From Cirrosporium novae-zelandiae (lineage: Eukaryota): DNA of 20,000 nt. Shown piece after piece: positions 497 to 18,399 of the stretch. Position numbers and translations under genes: made by a program. Every line of letters begins with the position of its first letter. The stretch's first letter is position 1. The stretch spans positions 433,650 to 453,649 of the forward strand of contig JAPETS010000028.1 of the NCBI GenBank assembly GCA_026023565.1, given 5' to 3'. The notes under the pieces are model-generated. The model was not told the origin of the DNA. It made no database searches and saw only the letters and a list, made by a program, of their open reading frames with translations.

Positions 497-2108
497 ATGG
501 CGTCCTCTTCCTCATCCAATGTGGTCGGCGTACACTACCGCGTGGGCAAGAAAATTGGGGAGGGCTCGTTCGGTGTCATTTTCGAGGGGACCAACTTGCT
601 CAATGCCCAGCAGGTTGCAATCAAATTCGTACGTTGTTGGACACTGTCTGTACGAGTTTCGAACAATACTAACGGTCATTCTTCTAGGAACCACGAAAGA
701 GTGATGCACCACAGTTAAGAGATGAATATCGAACATACAAGATTCTCGTTGGTTGCCGTATGTCAAACCTCCATATCATTTGCTATCACATCATTAACCT
801 CTCACAGCTGGTATTCCTAATGTCTACTACTTTGGCCAAGAAGGTCTTCATAATATCTTGGTCATTGATCTTCTTGGACCCAGTCTTGAGGATTTGTTTG
901 ATCATTGCAACCGGAGATTCTCCATTAAGACCGTTGTAATGGTCGCCAAACAGATGGTAAGTTCATTGAATATTCAGTTCTCGTATATGTTTTGACAAAG
1001 TTATTAGCTTTCGCGAGTACAAACAATCCATGAGAAGAATCTCATCTATCGTGATATTAAGCCAGACAATTTCCTTATTGGTAGACCTAACACCAAATCC
1101 GCAAATGTTATCCATGTTGTCGATTTTGGTATGGCCAAACAGTACCGAGACCCAAAGACCAAGCAACATATACCTTATCGTGAACGGAAGTCGCTTTCGG
1201 GAACTGCCAGATATATGAGTATCAATACACATCTTGGAAGGGAACAAAGTCGAAGAGATGATCTTGAAGCGCTTGGACATGTGTTCATGTATTTCCTCAG
1301 GGGTGGATTGCCATGGCAAGGCTTGAAGGCGGCGACCAACAAGCAAAAGTATGAGAAAATCGGAGAGAAGAAGCAAACTACTGCCATCAAGGATCTATGT
1401 GATGGTTTTCCAGGTATGTACCGTCTCGATACTAAATTAGGTTATGATTCTAACATGAGATTCCAGAGGAATTCAACAAGTACCTGAGCTACGTGCGAAA
1501 CCTCGGCTTTGAAGATACTCCGGACTATGATTATCTCAGAGACCTATTCACGCAAGCACTAAAGAACACCGGAGAAGTCGAAGACGGAGAGTACGATTGG
1601 ATGAAGCTTAATGGTGGACGAGGCTGGGATGCCGTCAAACAGCACCCATCTCAACACCATTTACATCAAGCCAATGCACAGCCAAATTCTTCTGCCCGAG
1701 AACTCCATGGAACACCACGTGGACAGACACCAGCTGTGACTGCTGCTCGTTTAAACGCCGCGCAGCCCCCGCCTCCATCTCCAGCCAAGCCTGGAGTGGG
1801 CAAAACGCGCGACCGGCCAAACGCCTCCGGCGTGCCAGCGGTAAAGCGTCAGAGCGGAGCGGCGGGGGGCCTCGATGCGGTAACACCCACGGCGTCGACA
1901 CAAGCGCAATTCCAGAACTCCAATGCAAATCTGCCTCACAGGATGACTCAGCAATCGGGCATGGCGCAGGCGTCAGCTCAGCAAACTTCAAGGCAGAACT
2001 CGGAACAGAAACCCACGTTCATGCAGAAGCTCATGAAGGCTCTATGCTGCGGTAAATAATGGCTTGTGCCAATCTCAGAGCTATGCAGACTGACCCCGTA
2101 TAGGCTAA
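497..2108 (+). CDS. YCK1: Casein kinase I, Yck1/Yck2 (CK1-gamma-like, C-terminally lipidated) type; exons 497-628, 688-757, 808-956, 1008-1413, 1467-2051, 2104-2108 (448 aa), or ending at 2059 if the last intron is retained (449 aa)
   Basis: GT-AG introns 629-687, 758-807, 957-1007 and 1414-1466 join the ORF pieces in frame. Kinase motifs: [53 protein letters not shown]-rich tail ends in ALCCG, the di-cysteine typical of palmitoylated Yck-type CK1. Confidence 0.96.
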
Positions 2109-2399
2109 AAGGGATAATCCAGCCTTCTCCTAATCCTTGACCCCTCTCAAGCTATCTCGAGATGGCATGGGTTGTGGCCCTTTTCACATTTATTTTCTTT
2201 CCGGACATAGGGTTACATGAAAGCACTCGTTGCATTATGCCATCAGGGAAAAAAATTACGGATCTTTGCTCGGTCAGGGCGTAGCGGAACTAAACACTCT
2301 ATTCCATCACGCACGTCACATCACCATATCACATTACATTTTACGTATGGGTCCTGTCAATTCCTCCACATCATATAGAACATTCCGGCATGGGGCGCA

Positions 2400-4750
2400 T
2401 GATTCATCTCTTCATCAAACCAAATCACCAAAAACCAGCTAAACCACTTAAAAAAACTGGCAAAAAAAAACCAAACGATTCTGTTCCATATCTTCGGCTG
2501 TCCTTGGACGGTTGTCGGTTTCACCCTCATTTTATTTCTCTACGAATCCAACAGAGACGTTTGATACTAATACTGCCCATACACTGCTGGTATAATAATG
2601 GTTCTGAGGGAGAGGGGAAGCACCATGTCCACCAAAGTAGTTAGTCTTTTTTTGGTTCTGTGAAAGAGACGACCCGTTATGACGTCCGTTTTAGTTATTT
2701 CATATATGTTTTTCTCACTCGTTTTTCTCGTCTTGTGTGGGCTGTATACTTTCTTTGTCTCTCTTTTCGAGGACAGGTGGGAAATGGAGTGTGGGGGTAG
2801 ATGGAACTGGAGTGCAAGGGAAATGTGGTAGTGGTGGTGGTGGTAGTTAGTGATGGAGAGGATGTGGAAAGGGAATAGAAGATGGGTGTGTGTGTCCGAC
2901 CGTCCTCCTTTTTTTGTTAACTGTCCAGCGTACGTGCGTGTGGTCATCGTCGTTTTCTCGTGCGGGTTGCATTATCTGGGGCAAATAAGAATTGGCAAAC
3001 AACAAACACTGGGGTCTTTGTGGGAATCATGTCATATACGGTAATTTTTTCTTCTCTTTTCTCTTTTTTTCCTTTTTTTTTCCTCTCCGGTCTCTAGGTG
3101 ATTTGGGGTGGGGGAGTCAGTCGTCCGCATTACATTTCATTACAAATTACCAATTACATACTTGTTCCCTTGTATGTATGCGTGTGTTGTGTGGTATGTT
3201 ATGGAATGTGATTGGCCCCCCCCCTCTCTTGGAGAACCTTTTGGCTGGAAGGGGAATGGGAAATGGGAAAGAGGGGATTTGGGGGATAGGAGGGAAGATG
3301 TGAGATGAGATGAGTGGTGGTTTAGTTGGTAGAGTTGTTGTGGGTATAGGTGGTTTTTCTTACTTACCTTACCTTAACCTTAGGTACTTACTTAATTAGT
3401 TAGGTAGTTTAGGTAGGGAAAATGGATATGGGTGTAATAGGGTTTTTGGTTTGTTCTTTTTTTTTTCTCCCTCCCGATGTGGAAATGGAAGCGGATATAG
3501 AAGTAATTAAGTGGGTAGAGAGGAGAAAAAGAAAAAAAACGAGAACGGCTCAGCGGGCGGGCGGGTAAGTAAGTGGGCTAAAAAAGCACTCTAAGTATAA
3601 GTGTAAGTTTAAGTAAGTGTGAGGAACAAAACAATACTAGCCAACAGAGATGAAATGGGGCGGGAACTATGGAAGTTTGGAAGGTTATATACTTTTTTTT
3701 GAGGGAGAGAGACGGTTGGATTTGTTTGTGAATTGGGTTTGTTTGGATGGAGGTAAGCTAATTAACAACACTCATTCTTATTGTACCTAATCAAACCAAG
3801 CCAAAAGGCACGTGGGATATACCCAGTGTTAAGATGTATATAATTAGATGGTTTACTGGGTATGTGTATTATGTGTAAGTTATGTGGACTTCTAGACTTC
3901 TAGACTGGCTAGTTAATTGCAGGTAAGTAGGTCATTGAGGTGGCTTGGATGGCTTGGATGGCTTGGATGGCTTGGATGGCTGGACGGCTGGATTGAGGTT
4001 GGATGAGTGGGCGTTATATTCTAGTTCATGTGTTTATTTATTTGTGGAAAGTAGTGTAGATACTAGCGTAACTGAATGGTGGACCGAGGTTATTTTATCT
4101 TTATGGGTTTCGCTTTTTCTTCTTTTCTTTTTTTTGGGGGGGGATATATATAGATTTTTGTGATTGGTTGATTAATTTGCTTGGTATGTTAGTTTAGTTG
4201 ATTTATTAGTGGAGGTCATTCTTGTTAAGAGGTGAAGAGGATTTTTTTTGTTACGGTATGAGTGAGTAGGTAGGTAATTAGATGAGTGAATGTGTTTTAT
4301 TCGGGGGATGGATATATGTATATGTCTAGTGAGCAGGTAGTCTAGAAATGATATCTATATCTCTAAGTATATTTTGAAGGGAGGATGGTGTGATAAGTAC
4401 CTAGGTAGGCCTTCTTTCTTCATCCTTGATGCGGAATTGATTATAAGTACGGAGTTGGGGGGTTGAGGTCGTAGCTTGGGTTGGATTTGTTCATATTCAT
4501 AGTCATGTTCGTGGATATCGTGAGTGCGTGAGTGTGTGCGAGTGTATGCATGTACGCGCGAGGGTGGTATATATAAATCCAAATGGATTGAGTCTGATGT
4601 CTAATAAATATACCTGTTGCCGGGATGGGAAGGAGGGTTTGTTGGTCGTTGGGTGTTAATAATGGAGTGGTTTTTTTAGATGGTAGATCTGGGCTTTGTG
4701 GGAGATGTTCCCTGAGAAGAGTATCCATCGTCATGAAGGAAGGGTCCAAG
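2400..4750. other. Low-complexity, strand-skewed intergenic/3'UTR region between the convergent CK1 and TatD genes
   Basis: Homopolymer A/T runs, (GTG)n, (GAGAT)n and TACTTACC/GTAGGTAG-like microsatellites, and a G/T-rich plus strand. The ORFs here have only compositionally biased translations. Confidence 0.7.
3942..3977. repeat. Tandem repeat (GGCTTGGAT)x4 plus degenerate copies
   Basis: Four perfect 9-bp units at 3942, 3951, 3960 and 3969, followed by GGCTGGAC GGCTGGA. Confidence 0.9.
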
Positions 4751-4821
4751 TAGCTCGCCTCTTCGAGCTGGTTTTATTCATATATTTCGGTTTCCCTTGT
4801 CCCTTTTCGTCGAAATTGTCA

Positions 4822-6008
4822 TCAATTCACTACTTCCCCAAGTCCAAACATCTCAATTGAATTTCTCCATGCTGCCTCTGCCACCTCTTCGACCGGGATC
4901 CCTTTAACCCCGGCAACAACCCAACACACATGAGCGATAGCACACGGTTCATTCCTCCCCTTAACCATGCACCCTTTCTCCCACTTTTCCTTCTTCACCG
5001 CCTTCGGTAGCGGTGGTGCATTAGTTTTATACTTGGCGCTGGCGGCGCTGGCGCGCATCTCGCACCAAGGGGCATCAGTTTCAATTTGCAGATGTGAAAG
5101 CGGTATTGCCCTCACAACCTCTAGATTTTCTTCTGTTTTTAAGCTACACCCGTTAATACCGATGTGCAGTCCCAGCTCCAGGAGCCGTTTCATTTCCTCT
5201 ACCGAGCCTGTGAAGCTGTGGACTAACCCCCCCTTTGGTAATTTTGGTAACCTCGGTTTTAGCAGGCGTTCAAAATCCTCTGCCGCAGCGCGGGAGTGGA
5301 GGAATAATGGAAGGGGTGGGTCCAAGGCCGTGGCGATATCGAGCTGAGCTTCAAAGTATTTGAGTTGGGTTTCTTTAGGAGAGAGGAAGAGGCGGTCGTA
5401 GTCGAGGCCGATTTCTCCAAAGGCAACGGCATGGTTGGTGGTGGAGGCGGCTTTTGCGAGGGTGGCGAGGGAGGCAAGGAGGCCGGTTGGGTTGGGGGAT
5501 TTGGTGAAGGTCGTTGTGGAGCAGGGGTGCACGCCGATGGTTGCATAGCAAATGCTAGCTAGGGAGAGGGGAGATGTAGATGTTAGTAATTGGGGTTATA
5601 TATCGTAGGACGCCTTTGTTACGAAATTGCGAAACCAATTCATCATGAAACCTGGCTTGAAAAAAAACCCCCTCATTATCAGAACCAGAAAGGAAACGCA
5701 CGATACTGCTCCGCAATCTCCACCGCCTTTTTACTCTCCTCTAAATTGCTTCCCGTAATCATAAACTTCTCACATCCAGCATTCACGGCCCGTTTTATTA
5801 CGTCCGAGAGGTCATCATCGTGCGCGTGCTTCCCATGGTAGATTCCGCGAAAGATAGGATCCGAGAGATTTGCGCCGACCTAGTAAAGAAAATGTTAATC
5901 AGTTGAGGTGGGCTTCGGAGGTAGAGAGAGTGGTAGGGGGAAAGTAGGCGCACCTACGTCTGCGTAGCGGAGCTTTTTGGGCGGAGAGGAGGTCGCCATG
6001 GTGGTCAT
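4822..6008 (-). CDS. tatD: TatD-family DNase (TATDN1-like); exons 6008-5958, 5879-5702, 5558-4822; 321 aa (alternative start at 5999)
   Basis: Introns 5957-5880 (GTAGGT..TAG) and 5701-5559 (GTGCGT..TACTAAC..TAG) give one open frame. Motifs: DVGANLSDPIFRG, GVHP, GEIGLDYDR, LPLFLHSR, VHSFTG, ETDAPW, GRNEP. Confidence 0.94.
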
Positions 6009-6491
6009 GGACCTCTGGCGGGAAGATGCCAACGGGTGGTGGAGGAGCGTACTATGAGGAATGATCTGAACAAGCGATACAGATAGACAGTATGGTTTCC
6101 AAGAAGCAAAAATGCTACTTCTAGTTAAAGAGCCGATTGCATACACCATCAAGACAGCTGAAGTTGGTTCTGAATAGTAGGTTGGAGTGATGTTTCGACC
6201 TACCTTGGTGGCTCACGCCAGGTCAAAGTTAGAATAACGTACTTTCATCTCAATATAATTTATTCATACACCTGAGCAACGGAGGAAAATATCCAAAGCG
6301 AGCACGACTCTATACTACAAGAGCTTACAGGAGATGTACAGAATACCAATATCATTCAATTATTCATTCAATTCATCGACACTCATAAATACTACATAAA
6401 TATATATAAATATATACTTGTACAATCAAGGGTATAGTCCCACCCAAATACCCCACCAAATCCTCCAGCGCCTTGTTCGCCCATTCATTCA

Positions 6492-8121
6492 TTAAGGCGA
6501 GTTATCTCTGCACGAGAACGGCTTTCCAGCAGCTTTGGAATCTGTCTCAATTGACGAGCCTGTCGAATACAAACCGAGTACGCACACGGCTGCTCCAATC
6601 ACAATGGTGAAGAGGTTAAATACGCACATCAAGCTCTTCCACAATCCGGCTTTCCTACCAAAATGCTCCCCCAATCCCCAGCCTCTCCTCCATCCCTTCG
6701 CCCTTTCAAGGTTCAGTGCGATCCAGAAAAATCCACATAGACCAAAGGTAAACCAAGAGGCAAAAAGAGACGAGGTAAGGCCAAGAAGATCTTCGAATAT
6801 TGGAACTGCGGACGCGATAAGCCAGGCGACAGTCCAAAAGCCGATGCACAAAAGCGTCCAAATTCCCATGGTGAATGGAGTGTTGGCGTGGAGGTATTGC
6901 TTCTTGTTGCGGAAGAGGCGGACGTAGATGTATTTGCAGACAACGTGACCGTTAACTACACCTGCAATGACAATCTAATAAAGATAATCTTAGTTTAGAA
7001 CGAAATAAATTTAGGGGTCTAGTAAGGCTTACCGTTGGAATTGCCAAGCCCCAAGCAACTTTACCCATTATCTTGCCCGCACTACCCAGTGCTGGTGAAG
7101 CAACGTCATTCCCAACAAACCAATAAATCACAATTGCTGAAATCAGATACAGACTGGTATCCATTCCTTGCAGTAGATATAGTGCTTTGGGATAATCTTG
7201 TGGGTCTTCAAGCTCTGTGATAAACCCGAAGAATGCGACGTGTCCGGCATATGCAAAGACGATATTGGTAACAGCGAGGAAGCCTTCCTTCAGACTCACG
7301 GAGCGGAAAAGGTCGATAGTTGCAATAGAGTCGGGTTCTTGTCGCGGATTTATCACTCCAACCGAGATCATGGTGGTTAGTACGGCCGCGAGTATACTCA
7401 CGCAACTTGGAATACTAATCCATGCAATCTTCTCTAGCTGCCGCGGTAGCGTCAAAAGTATTGACAATACTGTGCCTGTAGCCGAGAACGCCAGAGTGCA
7501 CGCACCATGGTTAGTTATCACGTTCATCATGATACTGAAAACCTGGACATGGGAGCCCATGACTAGGACAAAGAAGAGGAGCTGAGCGCAGCCGAAGAAT
7601 TCTTTACCCCACCGACCGAAGAAAATCTGGCCAGCGTCTGCCATACTGTGGACACCAGGGTATACAAAAGCAAATTGGCCAATCATATAACCAGTATAGG
7701 TAGCGAGAAGACCACAGACGACTGTTAGGATAATACCGCTATCAGGAATATTAGGATTGGATCTTAATGGCCGAGGGTACATTGTACGAATAAGATAGAA
7801 GACTTACGGAATCAATCCTAGCACTGCGAAAGAATGAGGAAGAGCCAGAATACCCATGGATACGGTCTCAGCAATCATAAGCATTCCTGCCTGCCACCAC
7901 TTCATGGTTCTATACTTTGTCTCCGCACCATCTTCGTCACCGAATGCATTGACAGTAAAGTCGTTATCGGGAATAGCACTAGACTTTTCCAGATCGTAGA
8001 CTTTAGAGGAGTCTTCCGGGGTTGTGTTGTCTGGGTATCGGGGGAGTACACCATCATCAATTCCTGGGAGAGGAGCGAGAGGGGCGGCAGGGGAAGATTT
8101 GGTTGGTGAGGGAGACGCCAT
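6492..8121 (-). CDS. mtr: Neutral amino-acid permease (Aa_trans/AAAP family, Neurospora Mtr-like); exons 8121-7808, 7738-7033, 6974-6492; 500 aa
   Basis: Introns 7807-7739 and 7032-6975 join the frames. The protein has many hydrophobic segments and the family motifs YRTMKWWQAGMLMIAETVSMGILALP, TNIVFAYAGHVAFF and IVIAGVVNGHVVCKYIY. Confidence 0.92.
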
Positions 8122-8129
8122 TTGCAATA

Positions 8130-8155
8130 ATTGTGTCGAGATTGTGTCGAGATTG
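8130..8155. repeat. 11-bp tandem duplication (ATTGTGTCGAG)x2.4 just upstream of the permease start codon
   Basis: ATTGTGTCGAG ATTGTGTCGAG ATTG is read directly, beginning 9 bp upstream of the ATG at 8121. Confidence 0.8.
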
Positions 8156-8478
8156 AACACTGAAGGGTCCAGAGAGTGTTGTCAAAAGCTCTTCGAGGAT
8201 TTGGTCAGAGTTTTAGTAGTCAGTTTTTATGTAGTATCGATTTGCAAATCGAAACCTGAACCATGCAGGCAAAACTCGCTTGTCCCCACGGATTCTGCTT
8301 TTAAAGGTTAGTCGGCTATTAGACAAGGCAGGTTCTTAGTAGTAATAGATATTCCGAGGGAAAATGCATGTATGATGAGAAAAAAGGATGCAGGAAGAGG
8401 AGAGGAGAGAAAGCAAGTTAAATAGTGGGCTTCCCTTAAGCTCAGGCCCGGTTCCCTAATATGAAGGAACAACAGAGG

Positions 8479-8622
8479 CGATAAGGGAAGTAATTTTTTA
8501 TGATGCACATGCAGTTGCGTTCCAGATCCCATTGTGTAGATTCATGTAGGTTCGTGAGTTTTGTCATGGTGATAATGCAACCGATCTGAGTGCAAGACAG
8601 TCTGAAAGTAAACGCTGATAAG
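8479..8622. promoter_or_regulatory. Cluster of HGATAR sites (candidate AreA/NIT2 nitrogen-regulation elements) upstream of the permease
   Basis: CGATAAG at 8479, TGATAA at 8570 and TGATAAG at 8616, about 360-500 bp upstream of the ATG. The motif is short, so function is inferred. Confidence 0.4.
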
Positions 8623-9187
8623 AACCACAGCTTATTCTTGCGATATACAGTGTTTGATCAGAGAAAGATTAGGATAAAAGAACCCCAAGGTGACCTGTGC
8701 TTAGCATTCTTGATTCGATATATAGGAAAATGTTGATTAATGGTATGATATATATGATCTAGGTTGGAGTATTGTCTCGGAGTAAGTAGAAGGTTGGACA
8801 TTAGGGTTTGGTTGACATTGGACAAGTTGTCTCCTTTGCCAAGACCTAGTATAGCCTCAGGCATAGAATCTTTCAACCATCAACACCGACCGATATCGGG
8901 GCTCACAATTTAACATGACTAAAAACCTCGAATTTGGGCATGAAAGATGCTGGCACTCACCGTTAGATCAACTAGGTATGTCCTGTTTACGGCATTAGAT
9001 CAATCTATATATCACTAATTACTAATTGAGCACTACGGAAACCCTGTCCCCACTGGCATTTCAATATTCGTAATGAACGTGGGGTGCTACATATCCAACG
9101 ATAATAATATGTAATAATACGTTAATATGTTGCGGAGTAAATATGGGTTACAGTAAATGGTTAGTCTATGTTAGCTTCACAGCCTTT

Positions 9188-11523
9188 CTATTTGTTAGCA
9201 CCTGAGTCTTCTCCCATCACCAGGTTATGTCCAGGTGGAAATTTCGAATCACTCTCTAATATGTCCGCTGGGCCGTCTTTAAATACGAAAAATAATTAGC
9301 CCGGACTTTCCAACAGCAATGTTTTGTCAATACTTACCATGTCTCGAATATAACCTCCTTTCATGTTCATCGAACATCTTCGCCTTTCCTGTTTCTACGT
9401 CTTTTCTAGTAACAGCTAACTTACTCTTCGGCAATCCCATGCTTGCCAAAAACTTGACGCTTTCCCTCCACTCAAGTTCTCGCCTCTTCTTATCCCAGCC
9501 CAATTCTTCGCTCATCAAGTCAATGACCGTTGGGAGTGCCTCCAACGCTGCTTGAGCATTCAGGAATGCAAGCCGCGTTCGTCGAGCAATGACATCAACA
9601 GCTGTTTGGGCGTACTCATGGCGGACTGCATATCGAACCTCGCCATCGATAAAAGGATACAAAGTTGAAATCCTGGTTCCACGGACAGGGAAACGTTTTT
9701 CTGTGGGGGCAGCAAGGGCAGCAACAGTCCAGGCTCTATCACCGTAGGATTCGGTGAGATGCTTTGCTACATCAGTTTCGATACCGAAATGCTGGATCAA
9801 GTTGATGAAAAGGGTCTTCGAGAAACCGTGGGCGCCAATAAGTTTGACTTGGTGTGTTTGACATGAACCGTCTAGAATGGAGGCATCATGGTACATGCCC
9901 AGACCACTGATATCGGGAGCGTGAGAAACCGGTGTAGGGTTTAAGGAGAATAGATTAATAGCTTCATCGATAGTGTCTTCAGCCATCTGTCTATATGTTG
10001 TCCATTTCCCGCCGGCGCATGTTAAGAGACCGGAGTCAGAGACAGTGATAAGATGGTTACGAACTAAAGATTCGGTATTTTTCGCTTTGGGGTCACGGAC
10101 AAGAGGGCGAATACCAGACCAAGCAGCAAGAACATCACCACGACGTACGTTGATGTCGGGAGCAAGATAACCACGGATTTCAGAAAGAATCCAGTTAATT
10201 TCTTGCTCGCCAGCTATTGGGTTTGGGGTAATTTTTGTGGGCGCATCAGTTGTACCAGCAATAGTGTTGCCTTGCCAAGGTAAGAAGAATATGACTCTAC
10301 CATCAGACGTTGAAGGGTCAATTAAGCCCATGTTTGAAGGACTGTAATAACCTGGTAGAATGATATGGACACCCGAGCTTGGAGCAACTATTTCAGAGGC
10401 TTCTTGGCTATCCATCTTCCGTATGGAGTCGGTAAAAGGGCCAGTAGCGTTGATTATCCCTTTGGCTCGGATCGAAAATTCTTTGGCTGAACCACCATTC
10501 TTTTCGTCAACCAAGTCCCTAGCTCGGGCACCTATAAGTTTTCCAGATGCATCTTTATCAAGACCGACAATTTCTAAATGATTGACAACAGTCGCGCCGT
10601 AAATAGCTGCGGTCATTGCAATCGAGACATTCATCCGGGAGTCGTTATGGGCTCCATCTGTAATATTGATCAGGGAGGTCTGAATGTCTCCAATCAAAGT
10701 GTTTGATCTTACCGTAATAAACCAGCGCTCCAACGAGATTTTCTCTCTTCAGCATCGGGAAAGCATCCAGGGCTCTACTCTTTGTTAAGAAGTAAGAGCT
10801 TTCGATACCTTCAGACCCAGCAAGAAAATCATAAAACTTCGTACCAGCCCAGAAATATGGCGCTTGCCACCATTTTTGTATTGGAATCATAATTGGAAGC
10901 CATGAGGATAAATGAGGAGCTGTATCGAGGAAATATTTGCGTTCTCTCAGCGCCTCTTTGACTAATGCATACCTTTCCGCCGTTTAGCCAAAGAATAACT
11001 CAATCGCAAAGGAAATGACCACATACTGATTATAATCAAGTTCCCAAACTGCCTTTTCCAAATATCTTACACCTCCATGTACCAACTTTGTACTCTTGCT
11101 GCTTGTCCCACTGCTAAAATCATCTCTCTCCACGACAGCCACCTTCAAGCCTCTTGTGGCCGCATCGAGGGCAATACCAGAACCTGTTGCACCACCGCCA
11201 ATAATTAAGAGATCATATGGCTCCTCTTCTTTGCTTTCTTCTTGGCCACGACGAAATATCTTGTCTTTAATACCATCCTTGTTCTCCTGTGGAGCTGATT
11301 TTTTTAGATCTTGTATCTGTTCGGCACGGGTTATGACTTTGGGGAACCGTGGCGGGATGAATGTACCTCCTTTGCCATAACCGGGGGGTTGAACAACAGC
11401 AGGATCGGAACCAGGAATATTACGTGGTCTGTATGAAATGTAGAGAAGGGATCCCCCTAGACCGGCGGCGGCAGAGGTGTACAGCAAAGGTTTAAGGAAG
11501 CGGCGAGAGCCTCGATAAGCCAT
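9188..11523 (-). CDS. GUT2: Mitochondrial FAD-dependent glycerol-3-phosphate dehydrogenase; exons 11523-11027, 10972-10713, 10657-9338, 9276-9188; 721 aa
   Basis: Arg-rich N-terminus plus a hydrophobic anchor. Motifs: FAD-binding [81 protein letters not shown]. Introns 11026-10973, 10712-10658 and 9337-9277 keep the frame to the TAG at 9190-9188. Confidence 0.96.
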
Positions 11524-11794
11524 ATTGGATAATAATTTGGAGTAAGGTCAAAAGCGGCGGATGGGGAGGCTCGATGGCGATGAAAGTACAAGCAATTGGG
11601 GTAAAAGGGATTGAAAAATGTTATACAGGAATTCTCGTGGTTCAGGCGCACCGCACCTGTCAGGATGAAGGAAGAGATTATGTTAGATAATTAAATGCCG
11701 AACTCTGCTCGCCGAGTTAGATGGGTTGTGCTACTGAGCAGTAGACTTTATGCCGAGCCTAGACAAGGCCTTTCAGTGAAAACAAAACAGATGT

Positions 11795-11988: not shown

Positions 11989-12629
11989 CAAGAACATCAT
12001 TCCTTGTCTAGACACTTCATCAATTGTCGTTGTGAAGATATGAAGGGATTCACTTGGCTATATAACAAGTTGACATTTTACAATACAACAATTACTGGTA
12101 AAAAATAAAAAGACTCAATGTAAATTATCACAATTGTACAGGTTATTAATTTCATGTATTATATATCATGTGAAAGTACCAGGAACCCATCGGTGACAAC
12201 CTTGGAATTTCCAATCTCTCCAATCAGGTCCTAGTGCCTGGCGTGCTGGAAGACGATCACGGCGACGTCATTCCTACCCAGCCTACGATCATCTGATACG
12301 ACATGCCCTGAAAAACTCAATTACATATAGATATCCAAACTTCTACATGTACTATTTCTCTATTCTCATCTTCTAGAATACATATAAATTGATATATATA
12401 TATATAAGGGTCATAAGAAACGAGTCATAAGTTATGTTCATCTCACAAGTTTATAAAAAAGCGAATTACATGAGGCCATTGCAACCATGCTTCATTTACG
12501 CACGTCTGAAGGAACAATAAAAAATAGATATCTTAAGAGTTGCCAAGGTAAAAATGTAAGGGAATCGAAGTTGACATATACGTGCGCATGTTATAATCAA
12601 ACAAACCATCGATTTCAAGGGAGCAATAA

Positions 12630-13955
12630 TCAAGAGCTCCCAACAATAGCGTTCCAGTTGATTATCCCACTAACACAGTTAGTAGTTATCGTTGGACCTG
12701 TAGTTGATGAGATTATTTGCCCATTGCGTGTCATGGTAAATTTCACTACACCCGTGCCCAATGATGATGTGTCATATGGCACACTGAAATGATTCACGCC
12801 TACGGTTGTTGCACTCAAGGTGGTGACAACACTACCGATTTGGACCGTGATTGTTGCTGGGAATGAGAGAAGAGCGCTGAGGAAAACTTTGTTGGTTGCA
12901 ACAAGAGCTGGATTGGTTGTAGGTTGCCAGGGGGCGTTTCCAGTAGTACCAGGTGAACAACCGCTGGCGTCGTTAGGATTAATTCGATACCAGTAGATGA
13001 GTTTTTCCTGGGTGACGCTGGGTATAGTGGTGTTGTTGGATTTATAGGCTGCAATATAATAAGGGAGTACATCTCGCCAGTGGTCATGAACCATGTTATT
13101 GACATATTTGGTAGCCTCTGCAACGACAGCGCTTTCGTAAATGGGGCCAATATAGTGACTCTCACCAAAGTCATTCCAGGACAGGATTTGAACAAATTCG
13201 GGTTGTAATTCAATAACCTGTTGCCAGCGTTGGTGCCAGAGGGAGTCACCACGCCAAGTCCAGTTCTTGCCATACGCAGGAAGGTTGGTGTAAAACCAAG
13301 GGGAGACGGGCATCATATAGGGCTTTGTGCCAAGAATATTTCTATAGGCAACATCCACATCGGTAGTTTTGTCTGCTGCACCCACGGGCCATGCATCCCA
13401 AGAGAGAGCGCCATCGACCAAGGAAACAGGGTAAGCAGGCGTAGGCCCAATAGAACTCCAATCCGGTATAAAAAAGCAGTTAGTTGAAGCTCTGATAGTG
13501 GCCCAGTCGCCTTGGTTGGCAGGACCCTCAAAAGTAGAAACGAGGGGTTTTCCACTAACTCGGTACTGGGAGGAATAGAAATTGTAGGTATTGATTATGG
13601 TAATGGCGTCGCTTTGAGAGAACGTATGTGCTGCATAATCAAAGGATATAAACATCTTGAATTCACCAACTTCTATAGCAGCTGTGTAGGCATTCACAAG
13701 TGATCCTGCCGTATAAGGGTCACCGCCAATATTTAAAGCAAAGCCATCAATACCAGCAGCTTTGGCGAGGGTAATGTCATTCTTCCAATCATTATATGCC
13801 ATGGAAGCGGTATTACCAACCTGCAATTTGGTTAATCATTGAACTTTGATATTTCATTGGACAATAGGGACGAACAAAAGCATTATACTTACAATCATGT
13901 GAGCAAAGACCGTCTTTGTGGCTGTGCCGGAAGCACTGCTTGATGTAGAGCTCAT
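12630..13955 (-). CDS. Glycoside hydrolase family 71 alpha-1,3-glucanase (mutanase); exons 13955-13893 and 13820-12630; ~417 aa, no signal peptide in this model
   Basis: Intron 13892-13821 (GTAAGT..CAG) gives KTVFAHMI|VGNT. GH71 motifs: GIDGFALN, FISFDY, KPLVSTFEGP, FIPDWSS, SWDAWP, YMMPVSPWFYTNLP, WNDFGESHYIGP. The family call is firm; the start codon is inferred. Confidence 0.88.
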
Positions 13956-15123
13956 TGTGAAACTTGTCGTAGAACTCGATGTTGGGCTGGTGGTTGAAGA
14001 CGAGGTAGACGAGGCGGTAGATGAAGAACTGGATGAAACACTTGAAATGATTTATGTGGAGCTAATAGTCGACGATGTTATTGAAAAGGTGCTCGAAGAA
14101 GTACTTGATATAGTCAGATTTGAACTAGTGATGGTGCTGGTAGTGGAAATCGAGGAGGTAGTTGACGAAGTGCTCGAAGTTGAGATACCCGTAGAGTTTG
14201 TGCTAGATACTACGCTATTTGTGGAACTTGTTGTAGCTGTAGTGCCTAAAGGCGGGCTGCTGCATGAGGCGAAGAGATGCTTGATATCGAACTGCTGCCG
14301 GTACTAGAAGTGGAGGTGGATGCTGGACTTATGATAAAGCTGGTACTAGACCTTACACTTGCACTTGCACTAGTGCTTGTACTAGTACTTGTACTAACGC
14401 TCGCACTTGAGATCGAACTGGTGGTGACCAAGCTAATAGAAATTGACGTAGAGTTTGCAGAACTTGGAGTACGTGTGGAGCTTGATGTGGAACTCGTAGA
14501 GGTTTTAGAACTTGATGCAGAGATTGACCTCGTGCTGCTAGATGTGGAGCTGCTAAGCGTGACGGTTCTTGACGTGGCGGTGCTTGACGTGGCGATGCTT
14601 GACGTGGCGGTGCTAGTTGAGCTAGTTGTCTAATGGGGTGGAACATTTATAGTAGACCTTTGAGGGAAACAATAACTATAACTAGTAGTAGTGACAGTAA
14701 CTGTTCCTGCAATGGTTATATATACTCCAGATTGATAGGCTACTGTCGTGCTTGATCTTGTGATTGTTGTTGGAGCCGTCGGGGTCATGGTTGTGGTAGA
14801 AAATGTATTAAGTTCCAGGAGTAGGACGGACGCAATATTTAGGGCAGAGATCAAATGACCTGTGCTTCGCTTTGCAACTACTACATTTTTGGTAGTAGCG
14901 GGTATTGAGTTAGATTGAACCACTGTAGTATTTATCATCAGTTTTCTGGCTAATGGACGTGTATTTGTAGCAATAACATATAGGTTGGTTCTGCCCAGTA
15001 TGTCGTCAGATAAGCTGCGCAGCCACATATGCCAAGTACATCTCATCTTTCTAGCTGGGGGGCGACAGAGATAAGGGTAGCGGATAACGCTGCTAGAAGG
15101 AAGGAAAGTATGGTTGCTTTCGT
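13956..15123 (-). pseudogene. Decayed 5' part of the GH71 gene: relic signal peptide, pro-site and Ser/Thr-rich stalk
   Basis: Reconstructed reading: (ACG)KATILSFLLAALSATLISVAPQLER*DVLGICGCAAYLTTYWAEPTY / VIATNT...VPPH*TTSSTSTATSS...SISS / ASCSSPPLGTT...ISST*IISSVSS...MSSTSSSASGTATKTVFAH. Lesions: ACG 15123-15121, TGA 15045-15043, frameshift ~14978, TAG 14632-14630, frameshift ~14270, TAA 14054-14052. Confidence 0.75.
14568..14612. repeat. 15-bp tandem repeat (CTTGACGTGGCGRTG)x3 encoding (T/I)ATSS-like units on the minus strand
   Basis: Units start at 14568, 14583 and 14598, inside the Ser/Thr-rich relic. Confidence 0.85.
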
Positions 15124-16546
15124 CGTAAGATATCCGTACTTTGATAAAGCTATTGTCTCTATTAGAAATTAAACCACTTCGACTGTATCCTTACAGCCAG
15201 AAAAAAAAGAATGAAATCAAGTTGGTTGAGCTGGGTCGTTTGAAAAGCATGGCAACACAGCACTGCTTGAAAGGAATGACAATATTACAATAAAGACAGC
15301 CCGCTCTGAATTTTCAAAATCCAGAGTAAACGGCACACAATAAAGGAGAGTGGCTTAAGGGATCATATATCGATGGAAGCAAGGACAGGAGTTTGTCCGA
15401 CCTATCAAATCACAATCGAACCGGTTTCTGTAGCACCTCTTTCACTAGAATCCTAGATATTCTTCTTCAATAGCCCAAAGTTGATGCACAACAACCAAGC
15501 TTGAAGCCGAAAAAGACCGGATCCATGTGGTGCTGGATACATTTCTACAGGAACACAAGCTCTAACAGAGCCAAATTCCACTAGCGATGATTAGCTTCAT
15601 CCTTTTAATAGGGACATAGAAGAGAAGAATGGGCATGAAGATGATTAGATGTGATGTCTTGTAGTAGAGAATATAGTGCTGTGAACCTTTATAGTGAAGA
15701 TTAAGTGAAGGTTAAAGTCAATTATGTAGATACAGCGCCCTTAGCCTCGCCCAACCCTGATATCCAAGCCTCTAAGCGAGCTCCTTGAGCTTTGATATTA
15801 TTCTCGCCTTACCACAATATATTTTTTCTAATTTTTCAGATTACTTTACCCACCTATCTTATAAGTACGTAGGTAGTGTTGGAGAGACCGATACCTCCAG
15901 TATTTACCAACCCCCATGCATAGCAGGTTACTTGTAACTAGAGTAGATGAAACAGCGTCGAAATATAAATGATAGAACACGTAAAGCTCCTCCACCTCGA
16001 ACTTCACTATTATATTAAATACTCTTCCCTCAACATATCCTATGTCTCATTAACGTTCATTATCAGATCCCGGTGCATTGACTGTCAGCATGCCTATGTT
16101 TTACTTTTTGTAATTCGGGGTGTAAAAAGTTGTGAAGGAATAAATTGTTAATACTGTACGGGTATTGTACTGAAGTAGCCAATTTGTATATTCGCCACCT
16201 AATGTATTTTTTGGTTCCTGAGTTCCTAGTAATCAAGTGCGGATTTCAGTGCTTAATAGGCACCTCAGCGTTCAGTCAGGAGCACGAGGGGTATTGAAAG
16301 TATTGAAGAGAAGATCATTTCCCATTTAGCTCTAGACCAAACTAAAAATCACAATATTACAAAACCCGGAAACTCCCCAAACCTCAACACCACAAAAATT
16401 CTCTTATTACCATAAAGTTTATACCAATAGACTTTAGGCAGTTATTGTCGAGTCGGTCTACAATAGACCGCCTGCTTGTCCTAGTCCATTCCTTTCACTG
16501 GCTGCTATTCTGTCATACTTCCTCCCGCTGGCTACATTGTGGAAGC

Positions 16547-17190
16547 CTACTTTTCCATTAAGAAACAGACAACAGATAAAGTGATGGGGAAAAGACTGCG
16601 GGTGTGACCATCGGGGTCGCGTCCGAGCAGAATGAGGTCAAATATGGAGAGCCTGACACTATCCTTTGCAGCAAAAGTTTTCATCAACTCCTCTTGATAT
16701 AGATCAGCCATCTCTTGGATATCATCAAAGTATTTTATATCAACAGGATGAACTGATGGTTTTCCCACTTTTGCAGATATCTTGTAGGGGAGCTCATGTT
16801 ACAGGATGGAACAGCAAGGGGCGAATATTCTAGAGACTGAGATGGTGGTTCCCTCATCGTATTTAGGGGATGATAGTATTCCTGTGTTAGGGATACTGGT
16901 GTATAGGCTGTGTTGTTGTGCATTGCTGGGGAGGGATTGAGGTGAATGAGATGTAGGGTGTGCGGGTTTGGTAGTTGGAGGAAGACATATGGCGGGTTGG
17001 GAGGATAGGTGTTGTTGTTATGGGTTGATGGTAGTTTTGCAGCTCTTTCAGAAGTTTATGATTGCTGGTAGGATGGTCTAAAGGGACGTCGCGCTCGTCT
17101 GCGAAGAAAATCTCCCATTTGTTAAAGTGTATCACGTCATCGGACCCTTTACTGGGAGTGAGGAGGGCTTTTGCCAATGTGTGAGGCAGG
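16547..17190 (-). pseudogene. pgl: 6-phosphogluconolactonase (Sol3/Pgl-like) pseudogene fragment interrupted by an insertion
   Basis: LPHTLAKALL...WEIFFADERDVPLDHPTSNHKLLKEL and GKPSVHPVD...DSVRLSIFDLILLGRDPDGHTRSLFP match the 6PGL motifs FFADER.VP.DH..SN and FDL.LLG.G.DGHT.SLFP. No N-terminus is recognisable, a TAG follows soon after SLFP, and a 245-bp insertion splits the two halves. Confidence 0.85.
16797..17041. mobile_element. Probable solo LTR (245 bp, TGTTACA...TTGCA) with 5-bp target-site duplication
   Basis: Starts TG at 16797 and ends CA at 17041. Flanks are GCTCA (16792-16796) and GCTCT (17042-17046). Removing the insert and one flank (250 bp) restores the 6PGL frame (LLKELPYKISAKVGKP). 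Confidence 0.72.
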
Positions 17191-18399
17191 GTCTATCGTG
17201 TTCCGTGAAAGATTGAATGGTACTTGGTCGGTCATAAAGGCGTTACTGATAGGAGGGTCTAAAGGGTTTGAACCAAAGATAAAAGTAGAAAGTGGTTTGA
17301 GCTAGAAAAGGTAGTTGTAAGGGTGACTTTCAAAAGGAGGTTCTCAATACCAACTTAAGTACCAAGCCACTCACTCTATGTCAGGATAATCTAGCTGTTA
17401 TATAAGCTATGTTATCATAGCCTTCAACCCGTTCTAGGTGTGAGTCTCCGTTCGCAACTTCCATTCCCAGACTCGTCCCCAGTAGTCAGAACTCGTGAAG
17501 ACCTCATGCAAAATCTTCGGAATGGCCGTGGTGTATCCCAAGTTCGAGCCAAGTTCACAACAAAGAATGGTAATTTCTCATACCAGCTTAGCAGCTCTGG
17601 CAGCCTCTACCCATACCGAGGTCGAGGACCTACGTGGATCGCAGCAACTTACACCCTGGTTAGAACACTTAAGTTCGAAAGTTTTGGTGCTTTTTGAATG
17701 AATAAAAGAGAGCTGATAATAGTCTTCTTAGAAAAGAATTGTAATATAAGACCAGTGAGGTCATGCTACCATTTGTTGGGGAAATGCACTGGTGTGACAT
17801 TAATATAGATTTCTAGCAGTAGAAGAAGTACTTATATACCCCACCAGGGGGCCCGTGCTTAATGCAAATGGAGTAAACTAGCTATTCAGGTAACCACGAT
17901 GTAATTCTATAATATCAAGTGAGCAATATTGCCTTATGGCGTAGCATGGTGTGAATTTTCACAGGTGTTATAATGTTGCCCTACTATAAATAATCAGGGC
18001 GAAGTCAATGAGGATGATAAAAAAGGAAAATTGCAGCTAGACGATGAACTCGATACATGTTTAAGGACAGTTAAAAGACTTCTTCCTCTGAAACATCGGA
18101 CGAGGCAGATATCGACAAGGAGCATAATAGGCAACGGTGAAAAGGCCGAAGTCCACGAGAATCCTCAAAGAAATTAATATTATTGGAGTTGTTGAGAATT
18201 GCTGATGATTATTTATACAAACCCCCACACGAGCTGACCTCTTTCTCATCCGACTTCTCTCTCACAGGGACGTTATATTTCTTATACAATAACAATATCA
18301 TCAATATAGACTAAGAAATTCAACACCTCAGAGTCCATGTGTTAAGGCATACCAAACTGTCCGCAACGCATCATACCAATCAGTCCCTTATAGAAAAAA

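What the first reader, a model, noticed from the sequence alone, without database searches (positions are those of the whole stretch)
12630..15123. GH71 glucanase whose secretion leader and stalk have decayed while the catalytic domain stays intact: possible switch to a leaderless enzyme
Seen: the ~1.17 kb upstream of the catalytic domain can be rebuilt into one ancestral frame, but it carries six apparent lesions (start ACG, three in-frame stops, two frameshifts). The adjacent ~1.25 kb of catalytic coding sequence has none and keeps its intron signals and GH71 motifs. An in-frame ATG at 13955, in favourable context (CACA-ATG), lies downstream of the last stop and gives MSSTSSSASGTATKTVFAH, with no signal peptide. 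Established: most GH71 enzymes are secreted, but S. pombe Agn2 lacks a signal peptide and acts in ascus wall lysis. Inference: the 6-versus-0 split is hard to explain by whole-gene neutral decay. It suggests selection kept a truncated, non-secreted alpha-1,3-glucanase while the old exon became UTR or promoter.
Basis: partly seen in the sequence, partly recalled or inferred. Interest (0 to 1): 0.78.

Follow-up and report, generated by a model that had tools for sequence, protein, structure and literature searches.

The report
GH71 glucanase with decayed secretion leader

Summary
On the minus strand, a 417-aa GH71 ORF (ATG 13955, one 72-nt intron, stop at 12630) is intact. It equals the GenBank model M1834_004595 of Cirrosporium novae-zelandiae. 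The 1.17 kb upstream carries a strong coding imprint: 61-81% Ser+Thr in the rebuilt frame against 0-13% in the other frames, and a 186-codon open frame. It is broken by a frameshift near 14255 and by stops at 14632 and 14054. No consensus intron rescues it. An independent 350x contig from the same sample is identical. The catalytic part shows constraint: the DxxE dyad is present, 45 of 45 near-invariant columns are kept, and only 2 of 43 lineage-specific changes fall in conserved columns. A rough model favours "domain constrained while the leader decayed" 30-670 fold over whole-gene neutral decay.

Caveats:
- No RNA data exist.
- The signal-peptide/ACG piece is the weakest part.
- The upstream region has no homologue.
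- The sister paralogue's gene model is also leaderless.
- A decayed 6PGL duplicate lies nearby.

Leaderless GH71 enzymes (S. pombe Agn2) and relocalisation of duplicates are already known. This is a new member of a known kind, of moderate interest.

The parts
12630..13820 (-). GH71 exon 2 including the TGA stop (12630-12632). It holds most of the catalytic (beta/alpha)8 domain and the C-terminal part, with no stop or frameshift.
   Evidence: ORF. Pfam PF03659 at 433.9 bits. The spliced CDS equals P0002.
13821..13892 (-). The only consensus intron: 72 nt, GTAAGT donor, TTAAC branch, CAG acceptor, phase 0 after ...FAHMI.
   Evidence: The same intron position is retained as unspliced insertions in homologue models P0008, P0018 and P0025.
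13893..13955 (-). Exon 1 coding part from ATG 13955 (context CACAATG). It encodes MSSTSSSASGTATKTVFAHMI, which has no hydrophobic leader.
13956..14051 (-). Ser/Thr tract in the GH71 frame directly upstream of the ATG (81% S+T). It is relic coding sequence and the predicted present 5'UTR or core promoter. It is part of a 309-nt stretch (13956-14264) without any ATG.
14052..14054 (-). In-frame TAA (lesion). It lies inside the string CACATAAATCA.
14055..14243 (-). Ser/Thr tract in the GH71 frame. S+T is 61% over the open frame 14055-14303.
14243..14268 (-). Zone in which the Ser/Thr reading frame shifts by one base (frameshift lesion).
14249..14629 (-). Ser/Thr tract of 127 codons in the neighbouring frame (68% S+T). 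It holds short in-frame tandem repeats of period 6, 12 and 15.
14630..14632 (-). In-frame TAG (lesion) between the N-terminal open frame and the Ser/Thr tract.
14633..15040 (-). Thr-rich N-terminal region of the relic. It is part of a 186-codon open frame (14633-15190) and has no recognisable family.
   Evidence: The frame is open in 3 of 20000 shuffles. No Pfam family. No true homologue among 1.84 billion representatives. Atlas best score 0.76.
15043..15045 (-). TGA that ends the signal-peptide-like frame. The frame change to the 186-codon frame lies near here.
15046..15123 (-). Signal-peptide-like 26 codons, (T)KATILSFLLAALSATLISVAPQLER, headed by ACG 15121-15123 where an ATG would be expected. 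This is the least secure part.

Best explanation
The locus encodes an alpha-1,3-glucanase of family GH71. Today it can only be made as a 417-residue protein without a signal peptide, starting at ATG 13955.

Its ancestor at this locus was a longer secreted protein with three parts: a signal peptide, a Thr-rich region plus a Ser/Thr-rich (O-glycosylation-type) stalk of about 390 residues, and the GH71 domain. The 5' part lost its start and reading frame and has since drifted. Selection kept the catalytic domain, which is translated from the first ATG after the last stop.

The old stalk-coding DNA is C/T-rich and free of ATG for 309 nt. It now serves as 5'UTR and presumably as core promoter, so the transcription start should lie between 14264 and 13956.

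By analogy with the leaderless S. pombe Agn2, the enzyme would act on alpha-1,3-glucan from the inside of a walled compartment (ascus or conidiogenous cell), or reach the wall by an unconventional route.

Shown: the anatomy, the lesions, the coding imprint, the intact and constrained domain, and the lack of a leader.
Inferred: expression, start-site use, compartment, substrate, and that the relic once worked as one protein with the domain.
For: 1. The spliced CDS is intact and identical to the annotated protein P0002.
2. Family membership: GH71 Pfam 433.9 bits. It aligns over residues 11-416 to the solved AnGH71C chain 9fnf (E 1.7e-69), including WNDFGE opposite WNDYGE. That motif is the DxxE dyad shown to be catalytic (PMC12394665 passages).
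3. The Ser/Thr tract runs in the GH71 frame straight into the present ORF. The first 13 residues after the Met are still part of it. The tract and the domain therefore shared one ORF.
4. Coding imprint upstream: 61-81% S+T in one frame against 0-13% in the others, mixed TCN/AGY serine codons, and a frame switch exactly at the frameshift. The 186-codon frame is open in 3 of 20000 shuffles.
5. No rescue by splicing. Only the known intron has consensus signals. The single GT-AG path that restores a frame needs three non-consensus introns of 143, 299 and 276 nt.
6. Constraint on the domain. Among 195 GH71 domains, P0002 keeps 45 of 45 columns conserved at 98% or more, and 53 of 54 at 97% or more. 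Of 43 P0002-specific changes, 2 fall in the 94 most conserved columns, and random placement does as well in 3 of 10000 trials.
7. By mutational target size, all stops and frameshifts falling upstream has P about 0.01-0.03. A rough likelihood model gives a ratio of 31-671 for a constrained domain.
8. An independent contig at depth 350.6 is identical.
9. The architecture signal peptide + S/T-rich N-terminal region + GH71 exists in 2 of 241 homologue models, P0175 and P0218.
10. Leaderless GH71 has a working precedent. Agn2 lacks a signal sequence and sits in the epiplasm (PMC4384723 and PMC9214231 passages).
Against: - There is no expression evidence of any kind.
- The constraint tests cover the whole branch since the duplication. 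A recent death of the whole gene would leave no trace yet.
- The P0002 end branch is 1.8 times as long as its sister's (0.49 against 0.27).
- The signal-peptide call is weak. There are 15 comparable hydrophobic windows on this strand in 20 kb, an ACG instead of an ATG, and likeness to family leaders reached by 8 of 300 shuffles.
- The N-terminal 163 residues have no homologue.
- Close relatives carry the leader directly on the domain, and the sister paralogue P0003 is modelled leaderless. A stalked secreted ancestor is therefore not the most parsimonious state for the pair.
- A decayed 6PGL duplicate 1.4 kb upstream shows that this stretch collects dying duplicates.
- Indel rates in Ser/Thr repeats may exceed those assumed.
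Confidence: 0.5

Rival explanations
1. Same present state, different history. The enzyme is leaderless and selected, but it was never a working secreted, stalked GH71. A duplicate of a GH71 gene that lacked its own 5' end (or was already leaderless like its sister) landed inside or just downstream of an unrelated secreted Ser/Thr-rich wall-protein gene. It borrowed an in-frame ATG from that gene's Ser/Thr tract. The host gene was destroyed by the event and decayed.
For: - P0002 and P0003 are sisters (SH-aLRT 96), and P0003 is modelled as MSITQVNAKAVFAH, without leader or stalk.
- The nearest relatives have the signal peptide directly on the domain.
- Only 8 of 241 homologue models have more than 80 residues before the domain.
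- The upstream region shows no GH71 likeness and has no homologue.
- A fragment of a duplicated 6PGL gene lies 1.4 kb upstream, so duplicated pieces did land here.
Against: - Frame agreement between the tract and the domain over 116 codons has a 1-in-3 chance under this view.
- The relic leader resembles GH71 leaders slightly more than its shuffles do (8 of 300 reach the score).
- No 3' remainder of a host gene is visible below the GH71 stop.
- The P0003 model may simply be truncated. Its first residues resemble the end of relatives' leaders.
Confidence: 0.2
2. The whole locus is a dying or dead gene. The first upstream lesion (or loss of the promoter) silenced it. The catalytic part is intact only because too little time has passed or by luck. 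The 417-aa model is a gene-caller's artefact.
For: - No RNA evidence exists.
- The end branch is longer than the sister's (0.49 against 0.27).
- It sits next to another decayed duplicate.
- Lesion asymmetry alone is only P 0.01-0.03, and 0.05-0.13 if only the stops are counted.
- A redundant paralogue exists (P0003).
Against: - 0 of 45 near-invariant columns are changed.
- 2 of 43 lineage-specific changes fall in conserved columns, matched by 3 of 10000 random placements.
- The likelihood ratio is 31-671 against equal neutral decay.
- The intron signals, the stop codon position and the catalytic dyad are intact.
- A good-context ATG is the first ATG after a 309-nt ATG-free stretch.
Confidence: 0.2
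3. Nothing is broken. The lesions are assembly or consensus errors, or are removed by unusual splicing, recoding or non-AUG initiation. A secreted stalked GH71 is still made.
For: - Ser/Thr repeats are hard to assemble.
- ACG with A at -3 can initiate at low efficiency (recalled, not tested).
- The only read evidence comes from what may be the same sample.
Against: - A second assembler's 13168-nt contig at word depth 350.6 shows 0 differences and 0 gaps over 12500-15300.
- Five to six separate events would all have to be errors.
- The tandem units have periods 6, 12 and 15, so a collapse would keep the frame.
- No consensus intron spans any lesion.
- No ATG precedes the leader in its frame.
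Confidence: 0.05

Closest known systems
Schizosaccharomyces pombe Agn2 (leaderless GH71 endo-alpha-1,3-glucanase of ascus-wall endolysis)
   Same: It is a GH71 catalytic domain made without a signal sequence or transmembrane segment. It exists as a paralogue beside another GH71 gene. The proposed mode of action is the same: wall lysis from within. (PMC4384723, PMC9214231 and PMC3846778 passages.)
   Different: Orthology was not tested, because the Agn2 sequence was not in hand. The window gene sits in a Pezizomycotina clade next to its own paralogue. Agn2 is not known to me to carry a fossil leader upstream (recalled; no search made). Localisation and phenotype are known for Agn2 and unknown here.
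Secreted single-domain GH71 enzymes: S. pombe Agn1 (PDB 8yfh, 9m6l), A. nidulans AnGH71C/MutA (PDB 9fnf), Paracoccidioides Agn1p
   Same: They share the same fold-length catalytic unit, with E 1.7e-69 to 4.3e-65. The DxxE dyad and the conserved cysteines are kept. The closest full models, P0004 and P0005, are 56-58% identical.
   Different: Those enzymes carry a 20-25-residue signal peptide directly before K-x-VFAH (PMC3692533 passages). Here that position is occupied by Ser/Thr residues and the only leader-like sequence lies 1.17 kb upstream and is broken.
GH71 models with a signal peptide and a long S/T-rich N-terminal region (P0175 Sclerotinia sclerotiorum, P0218 Phlyctema vagabunda)
   Same: The order of parts matches the rebuilt ancestor: leader, then 170-240 residues with 31-34% S+T, then GH71.
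   Different: They are intact ORFs, with long C-terminal extensions (1272 and 1416 aa). They are only 46-48% identical in the domain. They are unverified gene models.
Protein subcellular relocalisation of duplicate genes (general evolutionary model)
   Same: One of two paralogues loses or changes its N-terminal targeting signal and is retained. (PMC2817416, PMC2397506 and PMC3879971: titles and abstract starts seen in the search listing.)
   Different: Those are genome-wide statistics in yeast, Arabidopsis and other eukaryotes. Here a single locus still shows the discarded targeting region as a datable relic.

Membership tests
Glycoside hydrolase family 71 (Pfam PF03659) | Sequence match to the family profile above the curated cut-off, over the full profile length. 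| tested here: met
   433.9 bits against a cut-off of 34, E 5.6e-130, profile positions 7-373 of 375, for exon 2 alone. The missing first positions are encoded by exon 1 (TVFAHMI).
Glycoside hydrolase family 71 (Pfam PF03659) | DxxE catalytic dyad: Asp general base and Glu general acid of AnGH71C. | tested here: met
   WNDFGE aligns with WNDYGE of 9fnf. The dyad and its mutants are described in PMC12394665 (passages). Residue numbering in the chain was not checked.
Glycoside hydrolase family 71 (Pfam PF03659) | A complete catalytic unit as in the solved structures. | tested here: met
   Residues 11-416 of 417 align to 33-427 of the 430-residue chain 9fnf_A, and residues 16-415 align to 2-398 of Agn1 8yfh_A. 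No structure was predicted here.
Glycoside hydrolase family 71 (Pfam PF03659) | Hydrolysis of alpha-1,3-glucan or nigero-oligosaccharides. | not testable with these tools
   Needs recombinant protein and an assay.
Leaderless (Agn2-type) GH71 | No N-terminal signal peptide or transmembrane segment in the translated product. | tested here: met
   The 15 residues before the domain are MSSTSSSASGTATKT, with a maximal 9-residue hydropathy of -0.16. Relatives with leaders score 2-3.6. This is hydropathy only. No SignalP was available.
Leaderless (Agn2-type) GH71 | Orthology or common descent of the leaderless state with Agn2. | not tested
   The Agn2 sequence was not fetched. The tree places the gene with its own paralogue inside a Pezizomycotina clade that mixes models with and without leaders, so an independent origin is likely.
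Leaderless (Agn2-type) GH71 | Cytoplasmic or epiplasmic localisation and a role in wall lysis from within. | not testable with these tools
   Needs tagging and deletion in the fungus or in a surrogate host.
Pseudogene (whole gene) | Reading-frame lesions or loss of conserved residues within the part homologous to working proteins. | tested here: not met
   There are 0 stops and 0 frameshifts in the 1254-nt CDS. 45 of 45 near-invariant columns are kept. The lesions are confined to 14052-15123.

The most novel reading that the evidence does not exclude
A relocalisation caught in the act. A secreted, O-glycosylated, stalked wall glucanase was turned into an intracellular (Agn2-like) enzyme by starting translation inside its own linker. 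The linker's coding DNA is pyrimidine-rich and free of ATG by its very codon make-up, so it was ready-made to become the new core promoter and 5'UTR. On this reading, Ser/Thr linkers would be preferred break points for converting secreted enzymes into leaderless ones. The same genome may have done it twice, since its sister paralogue is also modelled without a leader.
Probability: 0.3. Interest if true: 0.55.

Novelty: new member of a known kind. Interest (0 to 1): 0.35.

Why it matters
GH71 enzymes remodel alpha-1,3-glucan in fungal walls. Nearly all are predicted to be secreted, and the few leaderless ones (Agn2) pose an open question: how and where do they meet their substrate?

This locus would give a second, independent leaderless GH71 whose origin can be read from the DNA. 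It offers a dated relic of the discarded targeting region beside a domain that stayed under constraint. It also yields a concrete, cheap prediction: a transcription start between 14264 and 13956.

If confirmed, it is a textbook-style example of relocalisation after duplication. It also warns annotators that 'short' leaderless models can be real rather than truncated. It does not reveal a new kind of system.

Tried and rejected
- Whole genome: none is held for this window. The paralogue's locus and any further GH71 copies could therefore not be read.
- RNA evidence: no RNA holder is listed. Runs X2 and X3 of the same study gave nothing or only two short low-identity scraps.
- Homology of the upstream N-terminal region. 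Pfam found no family for 4 of 4 upstream pieces. HMMER against 1.84 billion representatives gave one hit, P0122, a translated tandem repeat matching 32 residues, which I rejected as an artefact. The Atlas best score was 0.76, below the lead level.
- A second, older GH71 exon 1 behind the relic leader. I suspected one from a by-eye likeness of DVLGICGCAAY... to the domain start. A max-sensitivity search with my own GH71 profile on all six frames of 13950-16500 gave only negative scores, so I rejected it.
- Rescue by introns: rejected.
- Cysteine loss as a sign of a reducing compartment: both widely conserved cysteines are kept, so this is uninformative.
- Repeats or mobile-element ends around the locus: only one 24-nt direct pair and one weak 34-nt inverted pair, so nothing.
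- Earlier findings of this scan: none.
- Papers. Dekker et al. 2004 (PMC491845) is not held, and Dekker et al. 2007 was not seen. Both are cited only through other papers' passages. No supplements were opened.
Full report
**What is there**

The window matches a named GenBank record of the ascomycete Cirrosporium novae-zelandiae (class Xylobotryomycetes). On the minus strand, the finding's coordinates hold a two-exon GH71 gene:
- exon 1 at 13955-13893
- a 72-nt intron at 13892-13821 (GTAAGT...TTAAC...CAG)
- exon 2 at 13820-12630

The spliced 1254-nt CDS translates letter for letter to the 417-aa database protein P0002, 'hypothetical protein M1834_004595'. The public annotation therefore already uses ATG 13955. 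Exon 2 alone scores 433.9 bits on Pfam PF03659 over profile positions 7-373 of 375.

The protein aligns over residues 11-416 with the solved A. nidulans AnGH71C (9fnf, E 1.7e-69), and with S. pombe Agn1 (8yfh, 9m6l). WNDFGE stands opposite WNDYGE. That motif is the DxxE dyad whose Asp and Glu were shown by mutation to be catalytic (PMC12394665, passages).

**The upstream relic**

- A leader-like peptide, (T)KATILSFLLAALSATLISVAPQLER, runs from ACG 15123 to TGA 15045.
- A neighbouring frame is open for 186 codons (15190-14633) and then meets TAG 14632.
- That frame is open again for 127 codons (14629-14249).
- The GH71 frame itself is open from 14303 down to the ATG, apart from TAA 14054.

This is real former coding sequence, not just open frames in biased DNA. 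The three Ser/Thr tracts give 68%, 61% and 81% Ser+Thr in the rebuilt frame, against 0-13% in the other two frames. Serine is written with both codon families (for example 30 AGY and 28 TCN in tract B). Third positions are mixed. The Ser/Thr frame jumps by one base between about 14268 and 14243.

The 186-codon frame is open in 3 of 20000 shuffles of its own bases.

The Ser/Thr tract continues across ATG 13955 into the present protein (MSSTSSSASGTATK...). The tract and the catalytic domain were therefore parts of one ORF.

The lesion count is five at minimum: the missing ATG, two frameshifts, TAG 14632 and TAA 14054.

**Are the lesions real, and could splicing remove them?**

A contig built by another assembler from a public run holds the whole stretch 12500-15300 at word depth 350.6, with 0 differences and 0 gaps. 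This run may be the source sample, so it excludes random consensus errors but is not an independent specimen.

The tandem units in the tract have periods 6, 12 and 15, so a collapsed repeat would keep the frame.

A scan of 13800-15300 for donors of the GTRNGY type with a branch site and a YAG acceptor returned 2 candidates. Both end at the known acceptor. An exhaustive search over all GT-AG pairs of 40-300 nt found one frame-restoring path. It needs three introns of 143, 299 and 276 nt with donors GTTATC, GTTCCA and GTACCG, and it deletes most of the stalk. No ATG precedes the leader in its frame. A secreted product is therefore not encoded in any ordinary way.

**Is the catalytic part under selection?**

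There is no orthologue DNA, so I used protein-level tests.
- Among 195 GH71 domains with complete models, drawn from the 240 listed hits, P0002 keeps 45 of 45 columns conserved at 98% or more. It keeps 53 of 54 at 97% or more and 90 of 94 at 90% or more. Its rank is ordinary: 51 of 195 rows have as many or more deviations.
- I built a tree of 46 rows. These were hits P0002-P0069 with complete domains plus 4 outgroups. 26 of the 68 were dropped for truncated models.
- In that tree P0002 is sister to P0003, a second GH71 of the same species (SH-aLRT 96). The end branches are 0.49 and 0.27.
- With five outgroups to polarise changes, P0002 has 43 changes of its own and P0003 has 27. Only 2 of the 43 fall in the 94 most conserved columns (24% of 397). 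Random placement does as well in 3 of 10000 trials.
- By mutational target size, a nonsense mutation has a 0.36 chance of falling upstream, and a frameshift 0.48. All of them falling upstream has P of 0.011 (3 stops + 2 shifts) to 0.030 (2 + 2). The figure is 0.05-0.13 for the stops alone.
- A rough Poisson model combines upstream lesions, absence of lesions in the domain, and hits in conserved columns. It prefers 'domain constrained' over 'same neutral decay' by 31-671 fold, depending on the assumed indel rate. It puts the neutral divergence of the relic at about 0.02-0.08 per site.

These tests show constraint over most of the branch. They cannot exclude that the whole gene died very recently.

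**What the relic was**

The least secure piece is the signal peptide.
- Hydrophobic 17-mers of its strength occur 28 times in the six frames of the window, 15 of them on this strand.
- Its best likeness is to the leader of homologue P0009 (TILSFLLAALSATL against TIFSLALAVISATL). That score is reached by 8 of 300 shuffles.

The 163 residues behind it have no relative.
- Pfam finds nothing.
- 1.84 billion representatives gave only a repeat artefact.
- The Atlas best score was 0.76.
- No hidden GH71 remnant lies upstream.

A long Ser/Thr stalk makes biological sense only for a protein that enters the secretory path. This is an inference from the general knowledge that O-mannosylation occurs there. 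It supports a secreted ancestor whatever the exact start was.

The order leader, S/T-rich region, GH71 exists in 2 of 241 homologue models (P0175, P0218). Overall, 8 of the 241 have more than 80 residues before the domain.

Against a simple 'decay of the family's own leader':
- The nearest relatives carry a 20-25-residue leader directly before K-x-VFAH.
- The sister P0003 is modelled as MSITQVNAKAVFAH, without leader or stalk.

The stalk is therefore derived in this copy. It arose either by expansion or by fusion with, or insertion into, another gene. I could not read the P0003 locus, because no genome is held.

**Neighbourhood**

The minus strand at 16586-17192, 1.4 kb upstream of the relic leader, holds a fragment of a 6-phosphogluconolactonase (SOL) gene.
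- It covers only residues 46-95 (88% identical) and 92-165 (78% identical) of the 262-aa protein P0243. That protein belongs to the same species but sits on another contig.
- No trace of the rest was found, and there is no 100% database protein for it.

This stretch therefore holds at least one clearly dead duplicate. That makes an insertion or fusion history, and also whole-gene decay, somewhat more plausible than they would otherwise be.

The rest of the window carries ordinary genes:
- a protein kinase
- a TatD-type DNase
- an amino-acid transporter
- an FAD-dependent glycerol-3-phosphate dehydrogenase

**How it most likely works now**

Translation can only give the 417-aa leaderless enzyme. 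A transcript from the old promoter would carry nine upstream ATGs. The 309 nt before ATG 13955 hold none. Only 857 of 20000 shuffles lack an ATG, and the lack follows from Ser/Thr codon make-up. The working transcription start should therefore lie between 14264 and 13956, inside former coding DNA that is 60% pyrimidine.

Pyrimidine-rich blocks act as core promoter elements in filamentous fungi. This is recalled from older Aspergillus work, not checked here.

Leaderless GH71 has a functional precedent:
- S. pombe Agn2 lacks a signal sequence (PMC4384723, passages).
- It localises to the epiplasm and is needed for ascus-wall endolysis (PMC9214231 and PMC3846778, passages).
- PMC12394665 states that, apart from few exceptions, GH71 and GH87 enzymes have predicted signal peptides.

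Several other models in the hit list also lack a leader, for example an Aspergillus group starting MKHLDR..., though some are surely truncated gene models.

**Comparison and verdict**

The gene is a full member of GH71. It is a leaderless member like Agn2, probably of independent origin. Relocalisation of one paralogue by change of its N-terminus is an established evolutionary model (PMC2817416, PMC2397506, PMC3879971; seen only as titles and abstract starts).

What is particular here is the readable fossil of the discarded part beside a constrained domain. I found no paper on this gene. Three papers mention the species, all taxonomic by title, and none was read.

| Reading | Probability |
|---|---|
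| Leaderless enzyme kept by selection after loss of a secreted stalked N-terminus | 0.5 |
| Same present state, but the relic belongs to a gene into which a GH71 duplicate landed | 0.2 |
| Whole locus dead or dying | 0.2 |
| Errors or exotic expression restoring secretion | 0.05 |

Interest is moderate to low. This is a neat, testable case of a known process in a little-studied fungus, with no expression data.

Noticed in passing
window 16586-17192 (-): A fragment of a 6-phosphogluconolactonase (SOL) gene. It covers only residues 46-95 (88% identical) and 92-165 (78% identical) of the 262-aa protein P0243, which belongs to the same species but sits on another contig. The GxGxDGH-type motif reads LGRDPDGHT instead of LGCGPDGHT. 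The rest of the Pfam profile was not found in neighbouring frames, and no database protein matches at 100%. It is probably a dead partial duplicate.
   Followed up: partly
window 14049-14059 (-): The TAA lesion lies inside CACATAAATCA, a TATA-like string about 100 nt upstream of ATG 13955. The mutation that broke the old frame may have helped to make a new core promoter. This is pure speculation.
   Followed up: no
window 13903-14633 (+): Two long open frames on the opposite strand (134 and 121 codons, rich in Leu, Val, Glu and Asp). They are the mirror image of the Ser/Thr codons, not genes.
   Followed up: no
database proteins P0124-P0167: 25 of the 120 listed long GH71 hits, mostly Aspergillus, are models that join GH71 to an aminopeptidase I domain (PF02127). 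P0037 is even named aminopeptidase I. This is either a conserved gene pair merged by gene callers or a true fusion. Several of the GH71 parts in this group lack a leader (MKHLDR... starts).
   Followed up: no
database protein P0003 (same species, other contig): The sister paralogue is modelled from MSITQVNAKAVFAH. These residues resemble the last residues of relatives' signal peptides (...SIQAQAKEVFAH in P0005). The model may be truncated, or this copy may have lost its leader too.
   Followed up: partly
database protein P0122: A 1576-aa 'protein' made of a translated tandem repeat. It was the only hit to the relic's N-terminal region and scored E 8.6e-16 through many copies of a 32-residue match. 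It is an example of a repeat artefact in the representative library.
   Followed up: yes
window 1008-11547: Ordinary neighbouring genes by Pfam: a protein kinase (1008-1487 +), a TatD DNase (4825-5595 -), an amino-acid transporter (6495-7803 -), and an FAD-dependent glycerol-3-phosphate dehydrogenase with DAO_C (9330-11547 -).
   Followed up: partly
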